A DNA stretch of 61,819 nt, counting the filler, from Bipalium vagum (lineage: Eukaryota), in the NCBI GenBank assembly GCA_037834085.1. It is 3 parts of 3 records of this genome, joined end to end, with 100 filler letters (N's around TTAATTAATTAA, not from the genome) between each part and the next. Parts side by side here need not be neighbours in the genome. Positions count along the whole stretch, not along the records: positions 44,015 to 61,819 come from JBBMKC010050160.1; 2 more parts are not named here. The stretch is one strand, 5' to 3'. The position numbers were made by a program, and so were the translations under genes. The notes beneath the pieces are model-generated. The model was given only the letters and a program-made list of their open reading frames with translations. It searched no databases and was not told the DNA's origin. The first letter of the stretch is position 1. Each line of letters opens with the position of its first letter. Shown piece after piece: positions 39,790 through 61,819 of this stretch.

Positions 39790-41418
39790 ATTCAAAAATG
39801 TCTTTGAAGCTTTGACTCGTCCATAAATGAAAAACAAAGAATTCTATAGTTCCATGACAAGATACCTAAATTTAGTCAACGTAGTACTATTCATTTAAAG
39901 ATTTCGAAACCTCTTTTATGTAAGTTGATAAAAACACATCAGACAGTGAAACAACAAGACTCGCTAATGCAATTATGAAAAGAGCATGTTTATTGTCCAG
40001 GTTGAACTTGTTTAAAAAATTCGTTCAGAAATGTTCGTGAAAAACAGGCTGTTGTTATTAGGCCTATTATGCAAAAATGTACAGAAAATTGCAAAAAATA
40101 TGAGTATATAAAATTTTTATCCAACTGATGGATGGTTTAGCACATTGGCAAAATCTATAAAATGACCTGCTGATTTGCATGGTAGGCGAGGAAAAAAGCT
40201 GAATTTCGTGTGGCCAATGATTGGATAAAGAGAATATAGCCAAAAATATTCCTGAGTCTGCATCCAAGAATATTTACTTGTAGATAAAACAACATTATTT
40301 TTATGCAACATCTGAACCTACACATTTATATGAAATATAAAGTGATAAAGGATTTAAAATTTTAAAGACCGAGTAAAAATGCTTTGTACTAATAGCGAAG
40401 GTTAGAAGAGAGATTTATTATTATTTGGGAAAAGTATAAATCCTAGGTGTTTTAAAGGTGTTCAACGTGTGTATGTTAATGATGATTCTAGTCAAAATTC
40501 ATGGATGACTAGTGTAAATTTTAAAAATTGGTTGGTTAAATGGGATTTACAGGTAAAACGGAAAATTGTCTTAGTTGCACGGCACATCAAATCAATGTCA
40601 TTAAATAATATCAGAATTATTTACCTTCAAATACTACAGTCATGTGAAAAGGCTTTACAAACTTTAGCTCATTATCGCAAAGAAATACCTCACGAATCAT
40701 AACTGAACATGATAATACAAATCCATTTGATGAAATTGAGATTACAAAAATATTTCCTGCTTGATGCATTGCAGTTGGTAGCAGTATCGTGGAAGCATAT
40801 CACAGAGAACTCAATCATAAACTGCTTCAAAAAAGTAGATTTTTAAAACTAGATTCCGAAAATTAATGAATTTTATGATTTTACTGGCGATATCTTGGAT
40901 CAACAACCAGATGGTATGTCAAAAGAGAATTTTTATAATTGGTTATTTATTGATAATAATTTCCAAAAGGCAGTAATAATGTCAACATCAGACTTTTGTC
41001 AATCTCTTTTAGATTCCCATATATCAGTAAAGACTGGAGATAAAATTCAAAAAGAAATTTTAGAAACTCCACCAACAGATTCTCAAATGCAAGAAGCTTT
41101 AAAATTTCTTCACCGTGGTCAACGAAAAAATTTCAAAGTCGAGAAAAAAATGTTCAGGAACGTTATGAATATGAAAAATTCATTAAGTAATTATTGAACT
41201 CAAAGAAACGTAAAACTAATACTGGATGAATATTTCAAATAAAATCTTTTTTCTATGAAATGTGACTACAGGAAAAAGGTAATAAATTTTAAATAAAATG
41301 TTATTTGTTATGGTGATATAATAAAAGTAGAAAGATGTGGTAAATTTTAATATCCTTCGGTTAATGTTATCATAAGTGGTAGATCCCAGTGTGATCACAT
41401 TGAGCGAATTCTGAAGTA
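39790..41418 (+). mobile_element. degenerate Tigger/pogo (DDE_1, TIGD-like) element with right TIR
   Basis: KDRV..LCTN.EG..K..LL..GKS.NPRCFKG, NSWMTS..F.NWL.KWD and W..I....IINCFKK motifs; right end gtgatcacattgagcgaattct..TA. Confidence 0.85.
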
Positions 41419-44014: not shown

Positions 44015-44025
44015 AATAATAATAA

Positions 44026-44085
<60 letters not shown>

Positions 44086-47000
44086 TTTTAGAAACATGAA
44101 AAATATAATAATAAATATTATCAAAGAGATTGATGAGATTTAATTATTCTGCTTATTTTTAATATTTATTTATCAGAATTGCTCACTCGTTCTGTATTCT
44201 CACTCATAACCAATTTATAAACTTTAATTTAATCAATATTTCTTTAATTAAAAACAAATTAATGGATTTTCTGTACAGGAATTGTTTTAATTCGTGTACA
44301 ACAATATATTAATTCTGCACATCATTCATGATCTGCAAGAAGAGTATTTCAGCCAGAATAATTTTCTTGCAATATTGAAAATAATTAATTATTATTTTCA
44401 ACAAAATAAATAAATAAATAAATATATTCTCCTTATTACTTTTCAAATAAAGTCGTACAGCTTTCCGTTTGTGGAGAATTGTATTCGAACATAATAATAT
44501 GATTGCGGACATCTGAAAATACTAATTAGCAGGAGATGATATAGCGACAGTCGACGTACGCGGACTGCAAGGCTGACGGGGCTGGGCATCATTAGGTTGT
44601 CCTTGTACAGCCTTCTTCACGAGGCCTTCTCGGGGAAATCGCCGTTTCATAGCGAATGAATTTTGAACGAAATATAAATAATTTTCGCAATTGAAAATTG
44701 TGAAAAAAGTGGGAAAATTTTTATGAAAAATATTATGCCTTATTATTAAAAGATGACATAGAAAATTAATTAAAATTACGTTTCGTAAAATAAATTAAAA
44801 AGAGAAGTCTTACACGAAAAATTGAAATATATCGTGAAAATGGCAATTTGAAAAGAGATTTCATTTTCATACGGGTAATATTCTTGGAGAATATTTTTAT
44901 GAATTAAAGTATATTTCTGGCATTATGTATAATAGTATATTATTACATGTGGAGCTGATAAAAATGGTTGTCAATGGTAATTAAAAATCATAAAAAATCC
45001 CATCTTATAAAAAAATAAATAAATTTTTTTTAGATAAATGCACCTTTTTCAAAATTAAACAAAAAAATATATTTCGTACAAAAGGGTTTTAAATTTTTTA
45101 AAATAATATTAATTTAATAAATAATAATAAATAAAAAAATAATAATTAATAATTTTTGCAAATAAAAATCGAATTAAATTTTAAAAATTTTTCACATTAA
45201 TTAATTTTTTAATTTCTGTGTTAAAAAGTTGGTCGAGAGAATAATTGCATGTTTCATATTTATTTCATTTTAGATATGGATTTTATTCAGCTTTCGGAAT
45301 TAATTTTTTATCATTTCTCTTTTATCAATTTATATCTCAATTATCTCCGACTTTCCATCTTTTCTTTTACCTCTCGTGTTATAGATTATTTTTATAGTGA
45401 TACAGTGTATATATATTTTAATCTAGTGAATAATAATTTTTTATTTTTCAAGTATACGCTTTTTAAAAAAACATTTTTGAACACAAAAATTTTTATTTAT
45501 ATTAATATCGTGAAACATGTTTCGATCTTTTCTCTCAGATCTTTTCCAGTCAATTTAATTCATATCATTGGAAAAAATTAAAAAAACCTTTTTAATTCTA
45601 AATACTTTAAAAATAGAATTTGTTAATATATTTAAAATTTTCCTTTTTCCTTTCCTTCCTTTATTTTGTGAATTAATTTCTGGTTTCAATTTTTTTTAAA
45701 TTACCAATGATTCGTATATTTTTCTTTCTTTATCATTATTAAAGTTGTTCATTACTTCACTAAACTCATTTTCATTGGCATATTTATTTCCTTTTCTTTC
45801 TTGGCAATTAAAGTATGATGTGGACATATTTAAATTTGTGAAATTATTTGTAAATCAATTTTCAACAATATAATGAACATTTTTCTTTGAATCATGCACA
45901 TCAGAAAAATATAAATTAGAAAATCAAAAACTTAATAACAGAAAAAAATTCATTTTAGCATGGTTGCCATATTAACAACTATTGGTTTGCAACCCACAAG
46001 AGAAGATATTTTTTTAATAATTTTTTAAGTAACCTTGAAAATCTTAGTATTCAAACAAACTTCTGTCAAAGCATGGTATTTCATGTCATTAGAAAATACC
46101 TTCAAAATTTTACCATTATTACTTTTTCAAATTTCCAAGTACATTAAATTACATTTCAATACATTAATCAATATTTTAATTGAAACATTAATTAAAATTA
46201 ATAAATCATTAAATTAAAATCATTAGTACAAAAAATACATTAATATTTAAAACAAAAATACTTTAATTAAATTTTTAAAGTTTTTTTGTATAAAATTTAG
46301 TATTAATAAATAAATCTACATAACTGGAAATAGGATTTTAAAATTAAAAATTCCCTTGATCTGACTAGTCTTCTTATAACAGAAGTGAACGTAATGAAAC
46401 ATAATAAAAACGTAGGAGAAGAAATAGGAGAACCACGTATAACCAATAAGAAGACATGTGAAGAATACAATAAGTAATACGTACTAATATTAAAAAGGTA
46501 GGGTAATTTTTAGACACCTCACCACTTTCTGCATAAATTTTTTCCGTAAAATCAAAGAAAATGTACATTTATTGTGTATCCTTTTTTACATAAGAATATA
46601 AACATGAGTAAACCAAATGGGAAATGCTCATACAACTCTCGACAAGCAATTTAGCCTTTCCAATGAACGTAGACCTCAAAATCATCAGTAAATGTCTGAA
46701 TCAATCTGAAGTAATACAGCTTTGAGTGCAATTCTTTCATCACCTTAGGGTTTATTTTATGTTTGTTATTCAAACAGTTCCAGATTCAATGGGTTTTAAA
46801 ATTCAATGACGATGTACTTGGATGGACATTGATTAAGAAAGTCTCTATCGCCATCCCTTAATTGGCCAGCCTCTATGGGAGTCCTCACTTCTTCAGCCCT
46901 GATTTCCTTCAAATAAAAGAAACATTGATCAATATTTGTATTTTTTGTGATTTCGAAATATTTCGTTTTCTTTGAAATATTACGATCCCAAAGTTTATTG

Positions 47001-47783
47001 ATCACATTTGGTCCAATGTGTAAATTTGTAAATACTTTTTAGTAATAATATTGTGATAAAATTACATATAAATTTCTACTACTGAATTCTTTTTATTTTT
47101 AATTTCTAATAATAATAATAATAATAATAATTACTATTATTAATTATTTTATTAATTATTTGTTTTTACTATTTATTATCTTTTATTTATTTTAATTTCT
47201 TTTTCTTCTTTTCGATGATATCATACAAGTATTTTCATTATTGCCCCTTCAAACACATTCTACGTTGCACCCTTCGACTGTTCATTCGTCTTCTTGATTA
47301 ATTGGGTCCCACCTTCGAAGATTTTGTCACGTCTCTCACCATCCTCTTATCCCTTATATTTCTGTGTAAAGTTGAATTTAAACAATAAAAAGGAAAGAGA
47401 CATTATTAAATATTATTCGAAAAATGAATATGATATATAAAAAAAATGAATTAAATATGCGGAGAATTATATTAAAGTTACCTGAAATTATCAAAGGAAA
47501 TCTGTCAGAAAACGAGACGTCCCCTATCCGACGTGAGGTGAGAGACGAAGGAAGATTTTTAAGAATAATTCTAAGCTGAAAAACAAAATTTTACCCGACG
47601 TAATTAATAATTAATAAAACATTTTTCAGCGAAAATACGTTATATCAAATAACAATCGATATGTTTCCCTGCAAATACTCGCCATGAAAAGAGTGTGATA
47701 AATTTCTGTTGGATTTTATTTTAATTTTCCCAATTTAAGTTATTGTATGATGACTTAGTGATATTTTAATATTGTGATCACAG

Positions 47784-47896
47784 ATCTCAAATGGAAGAAT
47801 TTGGCCAAAGAATCCCTGGAGGAGCTTGAATGGTGTCTGCTACAATTGACTAACGTCCAGACCAAACAGACCTTTGGCGATATTTCCACAGAAAAA
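47784..47896 (+). CDS. PDE4: cAMP phosphodiesterase PDE4/dunce-like, UCR2 exon A
   Basis: cacag|..LKWKNLAKESLEELEWCLLQLTNVQTKQTFGDISTEK|gtaatt matches UCR2 KLA.ETLEELDWCLDQLET.QT..SV.EMAS.K, with the conserved phase-0 junction. Confidence 0.85.
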
Positions 47897-48092
47897 GTAA
47901 TTTCTATTATGATCTCTCACGTTCACTCTCCTTCTCTCTTTCACTCATTTATCACTGTTAATTTACAGTTAATTTTGTAACGGAATTATCATCGTTTTGC
48001 TTTCATTTAATAATTAACGTCGTCAGTACCAACAATTGAAAGTTCACAACATCTGTCTCGATGGCCATCAGTACTGGACATGAAATCCAGAA

Positions 48093-48206
48093 ATGCCAAT
48101 GCCTGGTTCCAAAAGTCTACGGGATGCCTCCGTTGCCATGGGAATCACTAGAAATTTGACATTCCTCTTTTTAAAAACTGATGATAAAAAATATTTTCCG
48201 AAGTTG
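48093..48206 (+). CDS. candidate alternative first exon of a super-short PDE4 isoform
   Basis: ATG-started open frame MPMPGSKSLRDASVAMGITRNLTFLFLKTDDKKYFPKL ending at a phase-0 GT (gttaaa); in frame with the FKQVL exon. Confidence 0.4.
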
Positions 48207-49149
48207 GTTAAATATCAACCGATTTTCTGAATGGCACAAATTTTAATGATAGTAAAATTAATAATATTATTATATAATAATATTAAAATAATATAATAAT
48301 AATAAAATAAAAACTGAAGTGACACAATTTTTAAATATAAAAATATTATTAAAATTGAAATTTATCAAGTCGCAATTTGATTAGGCATAATTAAAACAAA
48401 ATTCAGTTCCACAATCTTTTTTAATTTAATTTAATATTATTATTATTACATCATGTAATTACGGGGATAATTATCTTAAATTTCAAACAATTATATATAT
48501 TTAATTAAAATATGAAATTTTTTAAAATTTTAATTGACGTTATTATTTCTGATTTGCACCAATCGTTTTTTGGAAAAATATTTAATATTTATTTAGATAA
48601 TATTATAATGTTGACATAATACTTCTGTTTTCGTATTATTTTATATAAAATGATTGTGGAATGATTTTTTTGTTTCTTTTATATAAAGCATTGATTTTTT
48701 ATGATTACACCGTTATCTGGATAAATACTTTAAATCGTTCTGAAAACCTTCACGAAACACCATTTTGTTTATTTAGAGTATTTAAACAAATAGTTGATCA
48801 AAATCATATATTTAAAATTATCCACTTCCATGTCTTCAACATATTTTATTACTTCGACCTTTCGCTCTATTGCTATTTCGTTTCTTGTTTTCGGCTTATT
48901 CATTTAAAGTTGTAACAAATTTTGAATTATTAAAACAGTATTAAAACAAATTAAATTCATTTTACATGAATCTTTTTCTATATATTAAAAATATTTTGAC
49001 CTACAAAAAATTTTAATTCACGTTAGACAAATATTCATAGTATACGAAAATTTTTTTTGAGACCCAAGTATGGATTTAATTTGGGACTTTGAAATTCATT
49101 CACATTAGACAATTTTTCATATTACACACATTCTTTATTTAGGAGAACT

Positions 49150-49470
49150 ATAAATTTTCCTAACCAGTTATACAACATGGCACACATATATATGTCTAGG
49201 CCTGCTTCAACAGTAAAGGAGTTGGACTTTTAAAAAGAATCAATGGTAATATGAATGCCGAGAAATATCGAAAAGAGATTTTTCATGACATAAACATAAT
49301 TGGTCAATGCTTAGTCTTACCAAAAACAGTATTCATCTCTCAACATGATTTGGCTTCACCATATAGGTGTCAAAACGACTCAGGCTTTCTTAAAAGAAAT
49401 ATTGATGTCATATTGATTTCATATTCTCTTGACACGAATCCAGTACAAAATCTTGGTGATTTTTAACATT
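49150..49470 (+). mobile_element. Tc1 (DD34E-like) transposase fragment
   Basis: MNAEKY..I...FISQHDLASP...SLDTNPVQNL (compare SPDLNPIENLW). Confidence 0.7.
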
Positions 49471-49859
49471 TGACTCATTAGGTGTATTGCAGACGCAGTC
49501 TTATGAAAGGTATTAATCGAGGTGTTGTGTGTCCTTATGTAATGAAGGTTATATCCTGTGATTTAAGTTTAAAACTATTTAGCATTTTTTTGCAGGGAGC
49601 TCTGTAGATTTAGTCCCACAGTAATTTCAATTTTATGTCAGTCTTGTACCAAGATTATGATACTTTTGGGATTTTATTTCTCCATTGATATTTCTCTATC
49701 GAATTATTTTTTCTTTATATTTTTATAATGCATATTTTTTATTAATTCTACTCAAACTTTCTCATGATATTCCTAATTCTCTAAGCAATGTTTTATGATT
49801 TCTCTTTGTAAAGTATGTTCAACATTTTTATATTTATTAAGTAATATGACAATTTTCAG

Positions 49860-49950
49860 TTTAAGCAAGTTCTTGAAGAGGAGCTGTTACAACTTGCATC
49901 GAACTGCAAGACCGGGGCTGAAGTCATAGATCATATTAAATCATTTCTGA
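49860..49950 (+). CDS. PDE4: PDE4/dunce-like, UCR2 exon B
   Basis: ttttcag|FKQVLEEELLQLASNCKTGAEVIDHIKSFL A|gtaagc, compare [31 protein letters not shown]. Confidence 0.82.
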
Positions 49951-51399
49951 GTAAGCTCACAATCTTTACCTTCTTCTAATGTGAAATATCAGATTTAATT
50001 AATCAAACTTTTACAAGATATTTTTCTCTAAAATAATAATATTATTTTTTCAAACAATTTTATTTTCCTTTATCTGTAATCAACAAAAAGTTTTGATTTT
50101 TTTTAGAACAGTTTCCGGTAAAATTAAAATAATAATAAAAAAAATAAAATAATAATAATAAAAAACGTAAAGAAAAAAATTACAGAAAATTATTTCCAGC
50201 TGTAGCAATATTAATATATTAAATTAATATTATAATTAATATACAAATTATAATATCCTCTTTATATTTTTAAAAAATCATTATCACTTTCTTCAATAAT
50301 TGATAATATTGATTTTATCATAAAAATTCAAGATTTAATTAATGAGAAAAATATCCTGCTATTAAACTTGAGTTATAAATAATTATTAATAATTTTTTTT
50401 AAAAATGTGCATGAAAAGATTTTATTTAAATTTGTGATTTATTTTAATTCTGAATATTTATAAAATGTTAAAGTGAAAAATATTGAGCCTTTAACAAAAC
50501 ATAATAGTTAATTTTAAATGAATGTAATGTAATAAAATGTAAGGTGACATAAAAATTATATGGCTAATTTCTGTACCGTTCATAAAAGAAAAAAATTGGT
50601 AACAAAACAGTTAAAATTTGTTGAAAGAGATCTTTGACTGAAAATCAGTCGGAATGGGTTGAAATATCTTTCCTGCTTAATAATGACAAAAATAAAACTA
50701 AATATTCATCAATAACACAATACCTGGCCATTGAAATAGACAAAAGTATCGAGATTCCAACTGTTATATTGCGTCAAAATGAATAACACCCATAGCGGAT
50801 CGACAAACACTTAATAATACTTTTTTCCCATGAATATTTGGTTTTGGGGTCCACAAAAAAGGGGTCCACATTAAAGCCACTGTATATACAAATAATGTGT
50901 TTTTAAAAAATATCACAGAAAAATTTGCCTAGTGGCAAATACAATTTATCTTTCTTCTCGGTCATTTGCAGTTGTCTTCTGCATATGTCTTCTGGAGGTT
51001 TCAATCGCCTTGGATTCTGACGTATTAAAGTTTTTTCTATTGCTGGAGTTGACTCTTCTTTGTCCTTCGTCCATCTGGGCTTTGTCAAGGTCGTCCACGG
51101 AAATTTTTTGATAGATGAAGTTATTTTTTTCCTCCAGAGCATCCAACCTTTTAATGATGAACTTTTGTTCCTCTTTGTTTTAACAGCCTTCCATAATTTC
51201 AAGTATTTATTTTCTTTTATAATTATATATAAACAAATATTTCCTTTTAAAAAAAATATATCAACGAATATAATTTTTTCTTTTATGAAATTTAACCTAC
51301 TACTCATTTTCTTCTGCCTTTGGAATGAATTATGTTACGTGATGTTATTGATTTTGTTCTGACGTCATTGCTTGATTTTTGTTTAGCAGAGCGCTTCTG

Positions 51400-51652
51400 T
51401 AATCTCATTTTTAAAAATGCATCGAATGATTTTAGATTTAAACGAACGTATCTTCAATAGATTCACGCATGTTGAAGAAAGATGGAAAGCAAACTTTAGA
51501 ACACCTGTACCGAGTCCAATCTTGTATGCAAATTAGAAGTTCAAAGCGCACATTTTGAACATTTGTAGACACTAAATATACCTATTAAATTTTTTTTTCA
51601 TATCTTATTTTTATTTAAGTTTGTGGTTCCGTTAGTTTTGGGACACCCAGTA
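51400..51652 (+). mobile_element. 3' end of a Tc1/mariner-superfamily element
   Basis: ...AHFEHL* followed by a TIR-like gttagttttgggacaccc..TA. Confidence 0.55.
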
Positions 51653-52099
51653 TGTTTTGATTGGATTTGTATGATTTTTCCCGAACTGTTTGATTCACCT
51701 TCGTATAGTCAAATAACAAAGTAATTATTGGAACAGTCATATCATATAGTCCTCTGATCCTTTTGAAATGAACCTGTTGGATATTTTCCTAGGAAGTAGA
51801 GTAATAGGACAATTCAATTCCAATAATTGACTAAAGCTGTCCTCAAAAGAATCCTTAGAAGACCAGAGAGAGATGGTGTATAGTTGTAAAGAGTATTGAT
51901 CGTTAAAAGTACCACCTTTACTGAATATACTTTCTTGAAAAAGTACGGTTGTTTGGTTGCCCTCTGTTTAATTCAATTTATCGTTATCCATTGTTATGGT
52001 TATTATGAATTCGTAATTATTTTTATATTTCTAACTGAACATTAATCTTTTCGAATTGTGTACAGTTTCCATCATAAATTATCTTTTGATGTTTTATAG

Positions 52100-52194
52100 G
52101 GTACATTTGAACTACATGAGAAGCCTAGGTCTACCCATCCACCTGTGTTCCGAATTTGTTAGAAAGCAAGTGAACATAGTCAACTTGACAGACG
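52100..52194 (+). CDS. unassigned exon (possibly PDE4 linker region)
   Basis: Strong ttttatag acceptor and gtaagt donor; only open frame is VHLNYMRSLGLPIHLCSEFVRKQVNIVNLTD (phase 2-1). Confidence 0.55.
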
Positions 52195-53229
52195 GTAAGT
52201 GAACGTTAACTTGTTAATAATTATAATAAAAATATGTTTTATATTATTTATTTCTGTTTTCACCACCGTGGATTCTTATAAAGTGGTCATTTAGGAAAGT
52301 GGGTAACTTACCATATTTAAATTTTGTTCCCAACAGAGCACATCTTCATTTCATTATTTTTCCCAATATTTAAAAATAATATTAGCAAAGAAAAACTTAT
52401 AATATCCCAAAAGCTAGACATATCATTTCCTGGGAGAAAGCTGTCAGATTAGTTCAATCTAATAAAAAAATAATTTCATCCTGAAAATATTAATCCCCGT
52501 TCTTCTTCACCATTTAAATTCGTGAGATAATTTTATTTATTTATTAAATTTATCTGAGAAGGAAATTAATTTCTTATTATGTAAGTAACAGTGTAAAATA
52601 GCAAAATTACCGATTGGGTCTGGTCATAGAGAGCAACCTTGTTCTGTTAGGACTCTTAATCGAACCTCCTTTGAATGACAAAACAGCTGTCATCTTTAAA
52701 TCCTCACGTCTAAGATTTTTAATAATTTAATTAGTCTAATTTATTAACGTTCCATCTTCAAACCACTAACTTTGTCTGCAGGTTTATCATTTTTTCTACA
52801 AGATCCACATCTAGTACTCAATAAACCAATGTTTCCCTTTATTTAATTGGAGTTTGTTTAACGGTTAAATAACTTACTCATTGAACGATGAATTTCTCAA
52901 CATCATCACCTTTGCTGAATGCCTTTGATAAATAACGCTCCGTGATAAAGTCAAAATGCATTAGTATCACAATTTTAACATTTATCCGTTTTTAATCCAT
53001 AAGTCAAGATTTTCAATAATTTATTAATGATCATAACAAATCCGATTCACATTTAAAGTTATTAACTGATTAAAATCTATACTTTATTAACACTGTGAAG
53101 ATTAAAAAGTTAAGAATAATTTAAAATAGTTTGATAAATTTTTATTTAAACTAAATAATTAATTTGTTTAAGTAATTGTGTTATTAAAAATTGACAATTA
53201 AATTTTCAATAATTTTTAAGAGGGTATAA

Positions 53230-54100
53230 TACAAAGCGTGTATAAGGTAAGTATCCGACTTTTGAGTTCAGCAAAAAAATATCATATCATAATTAAATAT
53301 ATTTAATTGACATTTTATTAAGAAATATAATTTCCAAAAGTTATTGTAATTGTTTAAATAAGTCGATATTATCGAATTTAACGGCAGTAAATTCAAATTT
53401 TAATAATATTCTGCATCAAAGGAAAATTGTTTTATTGATGCTTGAAATGAGTCACATTAGTCAGTGGCCATTTAGAATAATTGAAATAGAAAAGGATACA
53501 TACAATGAGATGATGAGAAAGATATTCCAAAAAATAAAAAAGATTGAGTATGGTTGTGATCTTTAGAAGTCTGGCAGAACATCAATTGAAGGTGAAAAAA
53601 AATGAAATTAAAAAGATAAAGTATCAAGTCAAAAAGGATGGCACCTCGAAATGATGAATTGACGAAATAATAGAATAGGTTTTGTTTTCTCTAGTATCAG
53701 AGGACGTCAATAGATAGGTATCATCAAGTGATTGTCTTGACAATTCTGTTAATCAGGATCCAGCTTACAATTAGCAAAACTAAGGCTGTACAAAAAATGA
53801 AAATATTTTTATTCTCAGAAAAATTCCATTTGCTGATGAGTCTGACTGAGAGATGCTCAACTGCAATCTTTATTAATGGCAACTCACAAGGAGTCTATTC
53901 TCTGGGATCAGACTAACTAGACTGACTCAGGATGAGATCATTCTGAAACTATTTTTTCATATTATGATTTGGGAAAACGGATAACAATATCGCAAATATT
54001 CTCCTCAGATATTAGAAAATATTTCCGAGATGGGAGAAAAATATTTTTCGAAGAATTCTGATTTTTAAATATGTTTCGGTCAACAATAACTAATGAAGTT
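53230..54100 (-). mobile_element. highly degenerate Tc1/mariner-superfamily remnant
   Basis: Minus strand ~53520-53580 resembles a decayed SPDL.P..FF.W.Y motif; TA-flanked terminus near 53230. Confidence 0.45.
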
Positions 54101-54299
54101 TTCAATAAACAACTTAGAAAGTAAACAGTTCTGTTTATTATTAGTCCATTAAATATGAAATATCAGATTTGCAAAATCCAAAGAGTGACATTAGATAATT
54201 TATATAATTGATCTCGAAAGTTATTTGTTTTAGTTTTACTGCTTAAATAAGTAATCAATTTTTATAGCACATATTTAAATATCTAATTATATTTTAAAT

Positions 54300-55030
54300 T
54301 GGCCTTCTTTGAGAAACCTTTCTACACAATGGATATTTCAAAAATTCTTGTCAATTTTGAATACGAGTTCCGTCGTGGAACTAATGCACTGCAAACGATT
54401 CGAAATATGAGTTGTGTTTGGAAGCAAGGTCGTCAATGAACGAATGATGCAGCGATGGGTTTAGAAGGTCCTTGTAGGAGATTTAAGTCTTCTAAATATG
54501 TAACGTGTTTTGTATCTGAGAAGAAGTTGAATCAATCTGTGCTGAAAGATGTTTTTGGGAAAGATTCATCTCAAAGTACTCAGGAGTGAGTGTTGACATT
54601 ATATATTTTCATCTCAACAAGTTAACAAGGTTAAAAAGCTTGACTGATGGGTATCACACGAAATGTGGGACTATCAGAAAACAAATCATATTCAAGCTTG
54701 TCTATTTTTCTTATTACGACAGAAAGGCGAACCATTTCTTCAACGTATTGTAACACGTCTAAGGCTTAGATTAGATAATCACATATTATCCCCTTAATGG
54801 TTGAATAAAGATGAAGCACTCAGACCTAGTCCAAAGCCAAAAGTTCGCCAACCATGTTATCCGTCTGGTGGTCCGTTGCTAGAATTATCCTCTACATTTT
54901 TTCAAAACCATAAAATTCTTTTACAGTAGAAACAATCTGGTACCTTATTAAAGGATATGATGAAGTGATCGGTATTAATCAACCTAGATTGGTTAAACGA
55001 GACAAACCAATTCTCTTGCAACAAAACGCT
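54300..55030 (+). mobile_element. degenerate mariner (cecropia-subfamily-like), 3'-truncated
   Basis: MDISKIL..FEYEFRRGTNA.QT.RN...NER..QRW, WVSHE, PFLQRIVT, MLSVWWS and PILLQ.NA motifs. Confidence 0.85.
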
Positions 55031-55339
55031 ATATGTAATACTACTTTCCCCTGTTCCTATCTTTATTATTTCCGATATTTTCTTCTTACAATTAAAAAAA
55101 TTATCATTGACTTTTATTTAATGTGAAATAATTTTATTAAATTTTCTTAATATTATCAACTGAAAATAATTTAATCATATTTTAATAAAATATAAATAAA
55201 TTATTTTATGATAATAATACTTCATATAGAATATATAATCATAGTCATTTAATTTTTATATTTTTTAATATATTCTTTTGAAAATGTTGAGATTTAAATT
55301 CTATAAAAAAAATTATAAAATTAAAAACTTTAAGATGTA

Positions 55340-55698
55340 CCGTGGCTTTCCGAAAATAAGCCCTTCCTATAATAAGCCCATGGGTGTATTATCGGAAGGG
55401 CTTATTTTCGAAAAAAAAAACTTAAAATTAAATTATGCTTTTTTTCAATATTAAAATTTGTTTTAATACTTTAAAAATTAGTAAATAAATAGCGTATTAT
55501 GATGAATTCTTCAAAATCATTTGAAAATGAAATGCTGTCAATCGATGAAAATGATGAAATCGACTTTATTTCGAATGTTTAATCTGATGGCAATCATTTA
55601 AAACAATAAATTACTATTTGAATTTTAACTATATTTAATAAAGATAAGAATTTTTATTTTTGAAAATATGCCCAGGGCCTATTTTCGGAAAACCCCGA
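55340..55698. mobile_element. TA-flanked MITE (pogo/Tc2-type TIR)
   Basis: TA|ccgtggctttccgaaaataagccct ... agggcctattttcggaaaaccccga|TA; internal inverted copy of the TIR core (aagggcttattttcg). Confidence 0.8.
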
Positions 55699-56032
55699 TA
55701 ATATATATAATTTTTATTAATTAATGAAAATGTAAAATAAAGAAAAAGCAATAATCAATATTGATTTCTGATTTCTCCATTGTGCGTGTTAATTTCAAAT
55801 TTTTTTCTTTTGATTATCAATGACTCACAACTTTTTCTTTAACCATAGTTATTGAAATTAAACATTATCACTGTAAACGTAACTGTAACTCCGTATTTTC
55901 TTTTTCCGATCTTTGGACTAACGTAAAAAGAATTGATAATTATAATTTTTGGAGAGAACTCTGTTTAAATTATAATAAAATGATATTTTAAATAACTATT
56001 ATTAATTTAATAATAATTTTTCTTTTTAACAG

Positions 56033-56079
56033 ATGAAATGGGGCGTCTTAAAGAAGTAATCGAGAGTTGGAAAGAATGA
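56033..56079 (+). CDS. unassigned exon phase-compatible with 52100-52194 (terminal exon or 23-nt microexon)
   Basis: ctttttaacag|AT GAA ATG GGG CGT CTT AAA GAA, then either donor gtaatc at 56056 or read-on VIESWKE* to TGA. Confidence 0.45.
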
Positions 56080-56689
56080 AGCGTTATGATTTATTTTATC
56101 CTTTTGACTTAAACGTGTTTATCTCCATGAATGTTGGTTATTACTTTACTTCATGGACACTGTCGAGATAGATATGAATACGAAATTTATTATTGTAGAT
56201 GTAATAATTGAATAAATAGCATTAGGACTTTATTATTATTAATATTATTAATAATAATATTTTTTAATATTAGTATTATTAATCTTATTATTATCATCAA
56301 TAGTATTAATATTAACATTATTATTAAGGCTGTTATTATTAATATTATTATTAGTTTTGTCTAAAACCAACCTATTCTTGTAGATAAAACTTACTAGTTT
56401 TTGCTGTGTTATCTCTAATCTGAGTAAAACAATTTATTGATAATTACTTTCCAGACCGAAAAAGCAAAAATTTCAGAGGTAAATTTAGGTACATACAGTA
56501 ATGAGAATCATGATTCTTTATAATGAGTCTTGGTTGAAGTAGACCTCAAAGCTCACCTCTCTGTACAAAATAGAACTAAAATATCATTGAAAACCCATAG
56601 GTTGAATTGCACCACTGTTAGTGATATTTGTAATTCAGTCAATAAAACTGAATGATGTGCTATGGGTTAAAGAAGATGGTTTTTAAAAC

Positions 56690-57350
56690 AAAAGGACAAT
56701 CGTTTCTAGAGATACACAAAATTATTTATTCAAAGAAAATAATATTACCTAGCCATTCATTTCTCCAATCTTTTTTTTTAATTTATGCATAGTGACCCAA
56801 GAGAATTTCCCTCGCTTTCAGTCGAACCATTTAGAAACACAGTTTTTGACATTTTAAGAAGTTTGAAATGCTGCTCAGACGCCGTTGACCGAAACAGGTG
56901 AAAATTTTAAGGAGCAAGATCTGGCGAATAAGACGGGTGGGTGAGTGATTCCATGTTCATATCCTTTGACATGTTTGTAACTGCATTGGAAGTGTGAAAC
57001 TGTGGAATGTCATGAACAAAAATCACGTTGTAATGTCTTTGAGCCCATTCTAAACGTTGATTACAAGACTAATTAATTTTTGATAGCTCTCGAATTTAAC
57101 AGTTTCAACTGATTTTGATGACCTATTTGTTCACTCCTTTTTTATCAATGTAGAACATTTTCTTTACCAAAGAGTTATGGTTTTACAGTCTGTTTTGGAG
57201 TTTCACGTGGGTAACCAATGACTTAAAGCGTAATTTTTATAATAAACCTTAATTTTCAACTAAAAACATCAGACATTATTAATACTTTTGATTTCCAGTT
57301 ACCTTTCATTCAATTGATAACGGGCCCACTTCCTTCTTTTGAGCGTATCA
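56690..57350 (-). mobile_element. degenerate mariner (mauritiana/Mos1-like)
   Basis: EWAQRHYNVIFVHD, THPSYSPDLAP*NFHLFRS, EQHF and MHKL motifs. Confidence 0.8.
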
Positions 57351-58385
57351 TGAAATCGTACATATATAAGTTGCTGAGTGCAGATTATCTTCTGGAAAGT
57401 TGTTTTTTTATACTGGCTGACATATTTATCCAATAATTTTTCTAAATTTAGTTCTTCAGTTTTGTTCTTTATCTTTTATTTTATTTTTTTTCTGTAGCGG
57501 TTAAACTCACATATATCTTGAGATCCTACATATTTTCCAAAAATGATAATAAAGAATACGGTACCCTTCTGTACCATTTTTGTTCATCATAAGCTGATAA
57601 ATAAGAAACTCCAACAAATAATCTTGGCTTGAGATAAATAAAGGTATGTTTAAATTTAAATATCTTGAATATATTACAGGTTTGATTCATTACTCCAGCA
57701 AACAGCGATTATTAAAACAAAATTGATTTGAATTGAATTGCAATACCATGTCAGTGAATCGATTTAAATAAATCTGTATTATTTACCTGTAAACATTTTA
57801 TATTGACAAAAGTTTCATGTTGAGGAAACAAATTAATCAAAAGAAACTTGTGGTAATATAGACATTTAATATTTCAAAATTGTTTATCACACCTTAAAAT
57901 GAGGTATTTGAAGCAAAAATGTGTATGTTTACAAATTTCTAAATTTCGTGTGATTTACCTTGCTTATCTAATTTCCCAAAAACAAATATCAAGATTAAAA
58001 GTTGGACTGACCCAGTACCAGGTAGTCCTTCTTTCGCCAATTTCAAAGTACCAAGTAACTAAAAAAGATCAATAAAATTCGAAACATCGTTGGGTGAAGT
58101 ATATAGCGTACTGTCTTAAATTTTAATACAAAAAAGAGAATTTCAGCAACAATATTCTTAATATGTATTCTTATACATATTACACAATAAAGGAACAAAT
58201 TGTATCAATTACGTCTGATGTAACAAAAGTTAAAAAAGAATACAGTCAAATCCCCATTAGGGTCAGACTTTGTTTCTTAAAACCGGAGTATATGCTTAAA
58301 TATAGTGAGGCGTTACACAATCAAATAAAGGAAACAAATGTAAATTATTATTATATGTTAATAATTACTATTATATCTCAATAAT

Positions 58386-58870
58386 GTAACTTGCGCTCGT
58401 CTACCAGTCACTTCTCACTTTAATAAAGTTGTGCTCTTAACCTAATTAACCTCAGTTTAAATCAAAATCCTTACAATAAAACTTTATTTATTGAATCAAA
58501 ACACTCACGATAATACTCTATCCGCACCCTGATTGAATTAAAGCAAATCACAATAAAACTTTATTGTAGTCACATCTACCACCCAAAATAACAATTTAAA
58601 TCAATCCATTACAAAACCAACGCCAATCGATTGTCTGATAACTCGAGTCAATATAAGCGAATGTTAGAATAAGATAGGATATTCAAAAGAAAAATATTAA
58701 ATCAATAATAATCATAAAAGCAAAACTGAATATAATCGATAAAAATAAAATCAAGTAAATAACTTCAACAGAACAACAAGGGGTCTCGGGTCGTCCACTA
58801 GGCCCTTTTCAGGTTGTCTAGGGATTCCCAAGTTCATTGGGTCCCCTTGTGTAATCCTGTTGCATAACCA
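58386..58870 (-). mobile_element. probable solo-LTR-like dispersed repeat
   Basis: TGTAAC boundary, AATAAA on the minus strand, and homology to 11990-12090 and 13090-13520. Confidence 0.55.
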
Positions 58871-59527
58871 TATCGCACGAAAAAAAAACTGAAAAGCAAG
58901 TACAATTTGTGCAAAAGTCACTCGAAAATGACAAGACAGTTGACATCATACCTGAATATGAGTAAAGACACTCTTGATTATATACAGGTTTGATTGTTTA
59001 GACAATAATGATTTACAAAATACTTGAGAAAACTGAAAAATCAATTAATTTTATTTCTTCTTTCTTGAAGAAGACCTATAAATAATCTTCCTTTTAATTA
59101 TTGATTATTCGATTTGGTATACATCAAATATTGATTTTCCCTAGCTTGAGGCTTATAAGTTATTGTTAAATGAAGATAACAAGGTTTTAGAGATCAACGA
59201 GTATTCGGAATTGAAAAATAATGCTAAATAAGAATTCAAGTTTCTGATGAATTACTAATACGATTCACTAATAAGCCTACATCATAACCTTCACCATTCA
59301 ACCAACATGATACTGCGGTGGACATCTGATATAAAGGGTATTGAATGGATTTAATAACAAGAGATAGAACTGCAAAATTCAAATCATTACGATAAAGTAA
59401 GCAATTGAAAATAAATATATATCCAAAGGTCACTGGCCACTTGTGATAGAGTACATAAAGTGATGAATAGGTCATTTTGTGACAATATTTTTAGAACTAT
59501 TTTTTATCACTTCACCGAATTCTTTCA

Positions 59528-61025
59528 ATGAACATTCCACCAAATAACTTCAGACCTCTTCAACTTGTATCTTCATCGAAGGGTCCGGCAAAAATATATC
59601 GATCAACCGAAGTATGTGAAGAACATCATACGATTCTTCAATGGTTAACTGAAACCGTCGGAATCAAATCTTACATAGACTTGAGATTAGAGGCAGAACT
59701 TTCTCCTTTGGGTCTTATGGACGAATATTTCATTAGCAGAGAACCTCGAGAAATGAGTTTGGAACAGCTGTCAAAAGACTCTCTTCAGACAGATAAGAGA
59801 TACAGATACCATGTACCATTATCTATTTTAAACATTCAGAATATTTTGAACTATTCAATGATCGAATACTATTGTATGATATTGGACCAATGTAAAGACC
59901 ATTTCAAGGTCTTATTTTCCGTTATGTTGAATGAAAACTGTTTCCCCATCTTAATAACCTGCAAACTTGGTAAAGATCGCACTGGGGTGGTCGTAGCCAT
60001 GGTCATGCAACTGTCTGGGGTTAGTGACCAAACAATAATAAACGACTATGTGTTGAGTGAGGTAAATATTTAATTATTTTATTAATTTTTTAGTTCGTTT
60101 CTTTAAGGAGATTTTCATTCCTAATTAAGTTTAAGTGATATATTATATGAATGTGAATATATTTATGAAACTCTACAAGAGAAAAGATAAACGTCATCAA
60201 GATCTTAGTTTTTAAATGTTACACGACTTATCCCAAAGGTGTTCCAGTTGACTACCACCTTTAGAGGGTTGTGAATCCCTAGGATAAACGTCATCACTTT
60301 ATTTAACTGGAAAATGAAGTAATGAATGCAAGAAAATTACAAAATGAGTTTTGTACAAGAATAATAATCATCTTACACTATTAACTAGTAGTACTAACGT
60401 GTAACCTCTAGTTGATTAGGCCTAGGGCACTTCATGGGAATACTTGTGTTTAGCATCTTTAACCTTACTTTTTATTTTTGAAATCTCAGATTACGAGACA
60501 AGAGAGTATTTCTACCTGTCTATCGATAGTAGTCAGGGGTTTTCTAGGGTCTATATTTTCCAGGCAAAAACTATCTTTGCAGAATTATTGTAATTACAGA
60601 TTTCGGAAAAACCTCGTTCTCACAGTATGTCTTTCAGAGAAAAATAAGTTTGAATTACTGTTTGATGGAACTATAAACAAATTAACAACTATCTAACAAT
60701 ATTTCAAATATTCGCAAAAAGTGATTCAAATAAACAAATGCCGTTATCAATTATCAATTTGTTAATAAACGAGAATTTTAAATTGAAAAGAACTGATATG
60801 AAAATCTTCGAAGAATAAATGAAACTGAATGAGAACTTTGATATCTTTTATCTTAAAACATTTTTTAGAAAAATAATTGATAAAATGATGATATCTTTCA
60901 TTTAGAAGTCTTATCTCCATTTCAAAGAAAAGGTACCCGAAGGTGTGGAGGATCTGAATAATGAAATTCTTATTAGTTCTCCTCAAACAATGGAGGAGTT
61001 TTTAGCATATCTGCAGGAAAAGTAA
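59528..61025 (+). CDS. IphP/MptpB/LipA-type tyrosine/lipid phosphatase (Y_phosphatase3 family), 2 exons, ~217 aa
   Basis: Exon 1 59528-60061: NFR, IYRS, GIKSYIDLR, HVPL, P-loop ILITCKLGKDRTG, LSGVSDQTIINDYVLSE|gtaaat. Exon 2 60906-61025: ttag|KSY...SPQTMEEFLAYLQEK*, phase 0. A donor at 61022 could instead extend the gene. Confidence 0.88.
60217..60406. mobile_element. small element with inverted termini (solo-LTR/TRIM-like) in the phosphatase intron
   Basis: tgttacacg ... cgtgtaac; gataaacgtcatca is repeated at 60186 and 60283. Confidence 0.35.
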
Positions 61026-61401
61026 TTTTTTTTTCGATTTTATAAAACAGTTTATTTTTAAATGTTTACTATACATTTTTACAATATTGAAAATACAAGA
61101 ACAAAGGATTTTTTTAGAGTTACATGACAATTGTGTCATTTTATACAGATGACAGCCCTAAAGGCAACTGAGAAAAAAAATGTTCAATCAGTTTTAATAA
61201 GGCACACAAACAGAGTAATAAAATTAAAACTTGAAGATTCAAATAATAAGCTTTATTCCCTTTTTATTCCCTCTTCTTAAACCCAATTGGAAACATTTTT
61301 TTCAAGTGGAAGAATGTAATTTGTGATGGTCAATCAAACATCGAACCGCAATTGATACGCCTGGTGGCACCAGATTACAACGGGTGCCCGCTTGGAATTC
61401 T

Positions 61402-61469
61402 TCAGAAATATGTTTTCATTTCTTCCAAAAAGGCATCAAAGAAATTCAAATTATCGATGCTTGATGAAA
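61402..61469 (-). CDS. probable last coding exon of an unidentified convergent gene
   Basis: atattacag|..SSSIDNLNFFDAFLEEMKTYF*, followed by two minus-strand AATAAA signals at ~61252-61268. Confidence 0.4.
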
Positions 61470-61819
61470 CTGTAATATTGATGTAAATACACTGTCTGTT
61501 TCTAATTACAAGGAGCAAATCAGAAATATAATTTTAAAAATAAAAAATAAAAAATGGAATATGATAATTTAAAAAAGGACCTGTCAAACTCTGTACTTAT
61601 TTAACTATGAGGAAACTTATAAATAAATTCTATGGTAGACGTTCTCAGTTTATCATTTGGAAGGTGTACTTAGTTACGCTTGTGTGTTTCGATTTTTAAC
61701 TTTTAAGCTGATTGTGTTGTCTCTGTTAAAGCAAATTAAAAAGTTATTAATCTAAATGATATTCTTCGTGGTCATCAATGACTTCTACCGTAACTTTGAT
61801 GTTCTTAATCTAACGGTTT

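What the first reader, a model, noticed from the sequence alone, without database searches (positions are those of the whole stretch)
59528..61025. Intron-containing, microbial-type IphP/MptpB/LipA phosphatase in an animal genome
Seen: an intact CX5R loop (C-K-L-G-K-D-R-T-G) with the NFR, YRS, IDLR and DY.LS motifs, split by a GT-AG intron that itself carries a repeat. It is therefore host-integrated rather than bacterial contamination. Established: the HCxxGKDRTG family (Nostoc IphP, M. tuberculosis MptpB, Listeria LipA, fungal and trypanosomatid homologues) acts on phosphotyrosine and phosphoinositides and is not a standard vertebrate family. Inference: either horizontal acquisition followed by intron gain, or a patchily retained ancestral gene. 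The H-to-T change before the catalytic Cys and the extra Lys in the loop may change substrate preference.
Basis: partly seen in the sequence, partly recalled or inferred. Interest (0 to 1): 0.7.

Follow-up and report, generated by a model that had tools for sequence, protein, structure and literature searches.

The report
Flatworm family of microbe-type lipid phosphatases
This three-exon gene, one of at least nine copies in what is likely a flatworm genome, encodes a predicted phosphatase of a family reported as absent from animals, and both its introns sit at the same places as in a distant animal-like group, so it was likely inherited from early animals rather than taken from bacteria.

Summary
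The gene is real but has three exons, not two. It scores far above the PF13350 cut-off. The assembly holds at least nine exon-1 copies, partly in tandem, under purifying selection (dN/dS 0.16-0.50). The host is likely a flatworm (mitochondrial code 9). Transfer from bacteria followed by intron gain is unlikely: (1) both introns match in position and phase those of a distant clade (about 25% identity) whose neighbour gene is animal-like RAD1; (2) long-form paralogues keep a ~40-residue hydrophobic insert shared with chytrid fungi. The tree agrees, but AU tests reject no origin. The window's subgroup looks bacterial in length only because it likely lost that insert. All 7 short copies carry Lys at loop position 2, the feature that published work links to multiply phosphorylated inositides; 0 of 5 long forms do. 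Best reading: an old eukaryotic gene kept patchily in animals and expanded here, with a likely shift in substrate. Activity and expression are untested.

The parts
59406..59429 (+). AT-rich motif about 100-120 nt upstream of the ATG, kept in the short-form copies; possible core promoter (inferred)
   Evidence: visible in the alignment of upstream DNA of all 7 short-form copies, weak in the 1 long-form copy aligned
59528..60061 (+). exon 1, residues 1-178: catalytic core of a PF13350 phosphatase
   Evidence: Met1 invariant in 13 of 13 flatworm-type rows; in-frame stops upstream
59831..59836 (+). place where the short-form subgroup lacks a 38-39-residue hydrophobic helical insert that the long forms carry
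   Evidence: alignments; spacing and hydropathy; helices 101-142 of the P0005 model
59960..59986 (+). phosphate-binding loop C145-K-L-G-K-D-R151-T-G, preceded by Thr instead of His
   Evidence: sequence; C, G, D, R, T, G invariant in 13 of 13 rows
60062..60905 (+). intron 1, GT-AG, 844 nt, phase 0
   Evidence: GT at the same codon in 9 of 9 exon-1 copies; same column and phase in L023 and L026
60607..60819 (.). degenerate dispersed repeat inside intron 1
   Evidence: 38 other genomic places at 69-87% identity; no Pfam match when read through with X
60906..61021 (+). exon 2, 116 nt (38 codons plus 2 nt)
   Evidence: homologous exons ending AA|GT in 6 of 6 loci with an exon 2
61022..61819 (+). 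intron 2, phase 2, 940 nt in all; runs on into contig C53285 (L019), where exon 3 starts at base 220

Best explanation
The locus is a three-exon, 244-codon gene of Pfam family PF13350 (IphP/MptpB-like), one of at least nine copies in this genome, likely inherited from an early animal ancestor and predicted to encode a soluble cysteine phosphatase for phosphoinositides and phosphotyrosine. Shown: exon structure, copies, constraint, fold and loop sequence. Inferred mechanism, by analogy with Beresford et al. 2010: Cys145 attacks the phosphate, Arg151 holds it, the in-loop Asp150 is the general acid (there is no WPD loop) and Lys149 binds the inositol head. The window's subgroup arose inside the flatworm-type clade and likely lost a ~39-residue hydrophobic helical insert, a presumed membrane contact. 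It also carries a second basic residue at loop position 2, as PTEN, INPP4 and SopB do, so it would favour multiply phosphorylated inositides or soluble inositol polyphosphates over mono-phosphorylated lipids. My odds: vertical inheritance within animals about 0.75; active enzyme about 0.85; shift to poly-phosphorylated substrates about 0.45.
For: Family. Fold: the model of full-length relative P0005 (pLDDT 92) matches C. difficile PTP (E 2.5e-9) and MptpB (E 1.6e-8) best; the exon-1 model of the window protein matches the C. difficile enzyme first (E 1.1e-4). Copies: 9 exon-1 copies plus one fragment; exon 3 of one copy lies upstream of exon 1 of the next on C126171 and C191293. Constraint: dN/dS 0.16-0.50 over 21 of 21 pairs, 0.22-0.28 for the window copy against its five older paralogues; exon 1 is 94% and intron 1 82% identical to the nearest copy. 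Splicing: relative P0005 reads through both junctions as one 285-aa protein. Ancestry: intron 1 (phase 0) and intron 2 (phase 2) fall in the same alignment columns in L026; intron 1 and the donor of intron 2 do so in L023. 28 of 29 relatives P0186-P0214 end in a read-through at the same codon and the 29th continues like a spliced product. The neighbour gene in L025 and L026 is RAD1, about 61% identical over 77 residues to the 282-aa RAD1 of the PDB (that it is human is recalled). The insert is shared with named chytrid proteins and missing in 17 of 20 bacterial-type rows. Tree: flatworm-type clade SH-aLRT 97, on the eukaryote side of a 95 branch; holding the 24 animal-like rows together gave a likelihood 15.3 higher than the quick free search, p-AU 0.81. 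Loop: Lys in 7 of 7 short own copies, Arg in P0002, no basic residue in 5 of 5 long forms; role of that position from PMC3091653.
Against: AU tests reject no origin: p-AU 0.43 for an animal clade, 0.16 and 0.21 for nesting in two bacterial groups, 0.07 for nesting in fungi (also 0.24). The free trees do not join the flatworm-type clade with the intron-sharing clade, and one puts two fungal-looking rows between them. No animal relative carries a source name, so 'flatworm' and 'animal-like' rest on the mitochondrial code and a RAD1 neighbour. Only 2 of 20 bacterial rows are named. Exon 2 was found in only 2 of the 4 loci L023-L026. Whether fungi share these introns was not tested. The His of the published signature is missing. 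In PMC3091653 a position-2 Lys gave new poly-phosphoinositide activity in one of three enzymes tested and only raised existing activity in the other two. A basic residue there occurs in 22 of 202 related loops, so it is not unique. dN/dS against the nearest copy is 0.50.
Confidence: 0.68

Rival explanations
1. Transfer from a microbial eukaryote (fungus or protist) into the flatworm lineage, with the introns already in place or gained at favoured sites.
For: Fungal-looking rows lie next to the flatworm clade in one free tree (SH-aLRT 94.7); the insert is shared with chytrids; the nearest ESM Atlas clusters are mostly Ascomycota; nesting in fungi is not rejected (p-AU 0.07).
Against: It has the lowest likelihood of the five trees tested. 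Both introns are shared with an animal-like clade. The closest non-flatworm rows (P0059, P0020) are unnamed, and P0020 ends at the same intron codon.
Confidence: 0.13
2. Transfer from bacteria into an ancestor of this flatworm lineage, then intron gain and duplication.
For: Most of the 150 listed hits look bacterial; the short form has near-bacterial spacing (94 against 72-89 residues); nesting in bacteria is not rejected; PMC3091653 reports no animal homologues.
Against: It needs two independent intron gains at the same codon and phase as in a distant clade and an independent gain of the eukaryote-type insert in the long paralogues. No bacterial hit scores above 66 bits, against 103-164 bits for the four flatworm-type hits. 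Free trees put the clade outside all bacterial rows.
Confidence: 0.07
3. This copy is a decaying duplicate or an enzyme with little activity, for example because the His before Cys is lost.
For: dN/dS 0.50 against the nearest copy; His missing; many copies in a repeat-rich genome.
Against: Open frame over three exons and canonical splice sites; Cys, Asp and Arg invariant; dN/dS 0.22-0.28 against older copies; SopB/IpgD work with Asn at that position (PMC3091653).
Confidence: 0.09
4. The gene comes from another organism co-assembled with the animal (prey or gut eukaryote).
For: The assembly holds three distinct COX1 types, two in code 9 and one that reads better in code 5.
Against: The contig is 17.8 kb at 27.5% GC, like the window's other two stretches at 23-26%; its intron repeat recurs across the assembly; at least nine copies lie on separate contigs.
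Confidence: 0.03

Closest known systems
Atypical lipid phosphatases (MptpB, Listeria Lmo1800/LipA, Leishmania LM1; Beresford et al. 2010, PMC3091653); Pfam PF13350
   Same: PF13350 above cut-off; MptpB-type fold; C-x-x-G-K-D-R-T-G with in-loop Lys and Asp; phosphatase domain only
   Different: Thr instead of His before Cys; Lys at loop position 2, which the paper's group 2 lacks; three exons; multi-copy in an animal, where the paper reports no homologues (its table lists one C. elegans motif hit)
Eukaryotic long-form PF13350 proteins: chytrid P0027 (Polychytrium) and P0043 (Borealophlyctis), and the unnamed intron-sharing clade (P0186-P0214, L023-L026)
   Same: Same C-terminal helices; both intron positions shared with L026; hydrophobic insert shared with this genome's long-form copies
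   Different: The window's subgroup lacks the insert and the His; identity about 25%; L025, L026 and P0071 appear to add an N-terminal membrane segment
PTEN, INPP4 and SopB/IpgD (group 1 loops of PMC3091653)
   Same: Lys at loop positions 2 and 5; the window's C-K-x-G-K-D-R matches the SopB/IpgD loop as printed in that paper
   Different: Different family: no such Pfam or sequence hit and none among the fold matches listed; the likeness is limited to the loop and is likely convergent
Siw14 / plant PFA-DSP inositol pyrophosphate phosphatases (PF03162)
   Same: PF03162 just over its cut-off (31.4 against 27 bits); second-best fold match for the exon-1 model
   Different: PF13350 scores far higher; the GKDRTG loop and the long C-terminal helices are of the IphP/MptpB type

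Membership tests
Pfam PF13350 Y_phosphatase3 | score above the curated cut-off | tested here: met
   85.1 bits against 22.2, exon 1 alone
Pfam PF13350 Y_phosphatase3 | MptpB-type fold | tested here: met
   P0005 model: top 7 Foldseek rows are C. difficile PTP and MptpB; window exon-1 model: C. difficile PTP first, Siw14 close behind
Atypical lipid phosphatases (Beresford 2010) | signature HCXXGKDR[TA]G including the His | tested here: not met
   Thr144 in place of His; all other signature positions match
Atypical lipid phosphatases (Beresford 2010) | in-loop Lys (position 5) and catalytic Asp (position 6) | tested here: met
   K149, D150
Atypical lipid phosphatases (Beresford 2010) | no WPD motif and no PH, C2, GRAM or FYVE module | tested here: met
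   no WPD in the translated exons; only phosphatase families in Pfam for exon 1 and none for exon 2; exon 3 is 27 residues
Atypical lipid phosphatases (Beresford 2010) | group 2 loop: no basic residue at position 2 | tested here: not met
   Lys146; Lys in 7 of 7 short-form copies
Atypical lipid phosphatases (Beresford 2010) | activity on phosphotyrosine and mono-phosphorylated phosphoinositides | not testable with these tools
   needs an enzyme assay
Horizontally acquired bacterial gene | nested inside a bacterial clade with support | tested here: inconclusive
   free trees place it outside bacteria, but AU does not reject nesting (p 0.16-0.24)
Horizontally acquired bacterial gene | introns private to the recipient lineage | tested here: not met
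   both positions and phases shared with L026; intron 1 with L023 and, by read-through, with 28 of 29 further relatives
PTEN / INPP4 / SopB families | family-level sequence or fold match | tested here: not met
   no such hit; only the loop pattern agrees

The most novel reading that the evidence does not exclude
IphP/MptpB-type phosphatases, described as confined to microbes, were part of the ancestral animal gene set (two introns conserved between flatworms and a probably sponge-like clade) and were lost in most lineages. In this flatworm lineage they expanded into a tandem array in which one branch dropped its membrane-contact insert and converged on the PTEN/SopB-type double-Lys loop, giving animals an unrecognised enzyme for poly-phosphorylated inositides.
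Probability: 0.33. Interest if true: 0.62.

Novelty: new variant of a known kind. Interest (0 to 1): 0.4.

Why it matters
The defining paper calls this family absent from animals, and my paper searches found no report of animal members; the library is incomplete and database annotations may already list them. If the reading holds, the family's history is loss rather than transfer, a caution for screens that call microbe-like animal genes horizontal on best hits alone. The short and long forms within one genome are also a natural test of the published rule that a second loop Lys opens the site to multiply phosphorylated inositides. It is not a new kind of system.

Tried and rejected
Two-exon model ending at 61025: rejected. 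A short 32-nt intron after exon 1: the nearest copy lacks that AG and no homologous coding sequence follows. An upstream coding exon: no conserved acceptor, and in-frame stops upstream. Word-indexed search with the exon-1 protein: 0 of 8 candidates. No RNA holder listed: 1 run holds the stretch, not on record as RNA, possibly the source data; this says nothing on expression. No reads were laid, so splicing of this copy is not shown by reads. The ZIP transporter exons next to copy L004 first looked like host linkage, but they follow a long ATT microsatellite with no phosphatase exon 2, so a misjoin is possible and I do not count them. No taxon titles were held for L023-L026. GTDB genomes were not scanned for named bacterial relatives. 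A bacterial promoter scan was uninformative (3 sites against 3.8 expected). PMC9774629 (passages) and search gave nothing that I used on the His. Four look-ups of earlier findings returned nothing. No complex was predicted, as no binding claim is made.

Full report
Observation. The window is a pack of three stretches; the third (44015-61819, 27.5% GC) is the whole of contig G000:C50160. It holds an open frame from ATG 59528 to 60061 (178 aa) that matches PF13350 at E 9.7e-24. The loop C-K-L-G-K-D-R-T-G starts at 59960 and is preceded by Thr. A GT follows at 60062, an AG ends at 60905, and a 116-nt exon follows in phase 0. The intron carries a degenerate repeat at about 60607-60819 that recurs at 38 other places.

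Correction of the gene model. The TAA at 61023-61025 is part of a donor (AA|GT). The contig's last 77 bases are identical to the first 77 of contig C53285, which carries an acceptor and a third exon. The three exons join without a stop. Both contigs that continue C53285 give the same last residues and a stop, so the protein has 244 residues. Paralogue L013 has all three exons on one contig with the same phases, and the unnamed relative P0005 reads through both junctions as one 285-aa protein. Splicing of this particular copy is inferred, not shown by reads.

Gene family. A search of the own genome gave 12 matches: 9 separate exon-1 copies on 8 contigs and one fragment (one search added one exon-2 contig). 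All 9 have GT after the same codon. In one search, 6 of 6 loci with an exon 2 end it in AA|GT, and 7 loci show an exon 3. On C126171 and C191293 an exon 3 lies a few kb upstream of the next exon 1 on the same strand, so the copies are at least partly tandem. dN/dS is 0.16-0.50 over 21 of 21 pairs of the 7 short copies; the window copy gives 0.22-0.28 against five older copies and 0.50 against its nearest one. An AT-rich motif about 110 nt upstream of the ATG is kept among the short copies.

Host. The two best COX1 matches use AAA at conserved Asn positions and ATA at conserved Ile positions, that is mitochondrial table 9; a third reads better in table 5 and may be prey DNA. With the low GC and ATT microsatellites I infer a flatworm, probably triclad-like; that last step rests on recall.

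Relatives. The full HMMER scan found 1,894 proteins at E up to 0.001 and listed 150. The best four (P0002-P0005, 103-164 bits) are unnamed and share the genome's motifs; the next scores 66 bits. An alignment shows two forms. Long forms (this genome's two copies on C206681, P0003-P0005, P0059, P0020, P0048, P0071 and the chytrid proteins P0027 and P0043) carry a hydrophobic insert of about 40 residues before the helix that leads to the loop; the window's subgroup and P0002 lack it. The distance from the DLR motif to the catalytic Cys is 93-94 in the short forms, 127-132 in the long flatworm-type forms and 72-89 in 17 of 20 bacterial-type rows. In the P0005 model the insert is helical. The short form therefore looks microbial in length, but it sits in one clade with the long forms (SH-aLRT 97) and shares their intron, so loss of the insert is the simpler reading.

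Shared introns. A profile search gave 42 proteins, 29 of them in one further clade at 23-31% identity to the query's first row. 28 of these 29 end in a read-through at the same codon as the window's intron 1; the 29th continues like a spliced product. A metagenome scan gave 9 loci, 4 of this clade. All of L023-L025 have GT after that codon. In L026 both introns, and in L023 intron 1 and the donor of intron 2, fall in the same alignment columns and phases as in the window gene; exon 2 was not found in L024 and L025. In L025 and L026 the gene lies head to head with an intron-rich RAD1 gene whose exon is about 61% identical to the 282-aa RAD1 in the PDB, with no other clamp subunit listed up to E 10. 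I take the hosts to be animals; 'sponge' is a guess from recall, not a result. Two matches of two among about 730 coding positions are unlikely by chance even with a tenfold bias for favoured sites (my estimate).

Trees. FastTree on 181 rows and IQ-TREE with a mixture model on 65 chosen rows and 278 columns both place the flatworm-type clade outside the bacterial rows. Near-duplicates and most bacterial hits were left out of the 65; only 2 of the 20 bacterial rows are named. Holding the 24 animal-like rows together gave a likelihood 15.3 higher than the quick free tree (p-AU 0.81). But nesting in bacteria is not rejected (p-AU 0.24). Under LG+F+G4 none of five trees is rejected: free 0.82, animal clade 0.43, two bacterial nestings 0.16 and 0.21, fungal nesting 0.07. 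The free trees do not join the two animal-like clades. The case for inheritance therefore rests on the introns and the insert, not on the tree.

Mechanism. Models match the C. difficile phosphatase and MptpB best. PMC3091653 (parts 1-4 of 5 read, that is the main text and methods; supplements not opened) shows that this family uses the loop Cys, an in-loop Asp and a position-5 Lys, acts on phosphotyrosine and mono-phosphorylated phosphoinositides, and that a Lys at position 2 marks enzymes that take poly-phosphorylated inositides. Adding it gave new activity in one of three enzymes and raised existing activity in the other two. The window protein keeps Cys145, Lys149, Asp150 and Arg151 and has Lys146. 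All 7 short copies have that Lys, P0002 has Arg, and none of 5 long forms has a basic residue. This is likely one evolutionary event, not eight. I predict a soluble phosphatase shifted toward multiply phosphorylated inositides. The His-to-Thr change is shared in kind by the whole clade (0 of 13 have His) and by 44 of 202 related loops; the hit set is biased by the query.

Comparison and novelty. It is a member of PF13350. It fails two features of the published atypical lipid phosphatase definition (the His, and the absence of a basic residue at position 2), so I file it as a variant that likely works like those enzymes. PMC3091653 states that no homologues were found in animals, though its table lists one C. 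elegans motif hit; PMC8027504 (passages) repeats 'bacteria and lower eukaryotes'. Searches (listings only) found no report of animal members. The library lacks most subscription papers.

Verdict. A real, constrained, multi-copy gene of a known fold in an unexpected host, likely old rather than transferred, with a testable change in the active-site loop. Interest 0.4.

Noticed in passing
L015 (G000:C206681) 1111-1731 and 2440-3063, minus strand: Two long-form exon-1 copies lie in tandem about 700 nt apart, and my motif search found no exon 2 between them; a long-form exon 2 and 3 lie on C239053. Alternative first exons or a partial duplicate.
   Followed up: partly
L014 (G000:C126171) 5797-7412, minus strand: Exon 1 of copy L004 is followed by a long ATT microsatellite and then ZIP zinc-transporter exons on the same strand, with no phosphatase exon 2 found. 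Likely a misjoin; a nested gene or fusion is not excluded.
   Followed up: partly
window 59050-61819 against L012 (G000:C206489): The two nearest copies (dS 0.13, introns 82% identical) are alike only from about 480 nt upstream of the ATG, end on the same 77 bases and share one exon-3 contig that then splits in two: recent duplicates or very divergent haplotypes.
   Followed up: partly
L020, L021, L022 (G000:C253947, C246471, C253320): Three distinct COX1 types in the assembly, two in mitochondrial code 9 and one better read in code 5, plus many broken copies: mixed DNA (prey) and nuclear copies.
   Followed up: partly
L025 4746-4970 and L026 3890-4087: The intron-sharing clade seems to have an extra upstream exon with a hydrophobic, probably membrane-spanning segment, also seen at the start of P0071; the gene lies head to head with RAD1 in both loci.
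   Followed up: no
window 55-441 (-), 6001-6405 (+), 40406-40702 (+), 56910-57068 (-): DNA transposase remnants: Transposase_1, weak DDE_3, DDE_1 and a mariner-like piece (by recall).
   Followed up: no
window 12061-12573 (+): A 170-aa frame that resembles the end of a retrotransposon integrase (recall); no Pfam match.
   Followed up: no
window 58770-58870 and L013 about 760-880: A similar GC-richer stretch lies about 700 nt upstream of the window gene and downstream of paralogue L013; possibly a shared repeat of the array.
   Followed up: no
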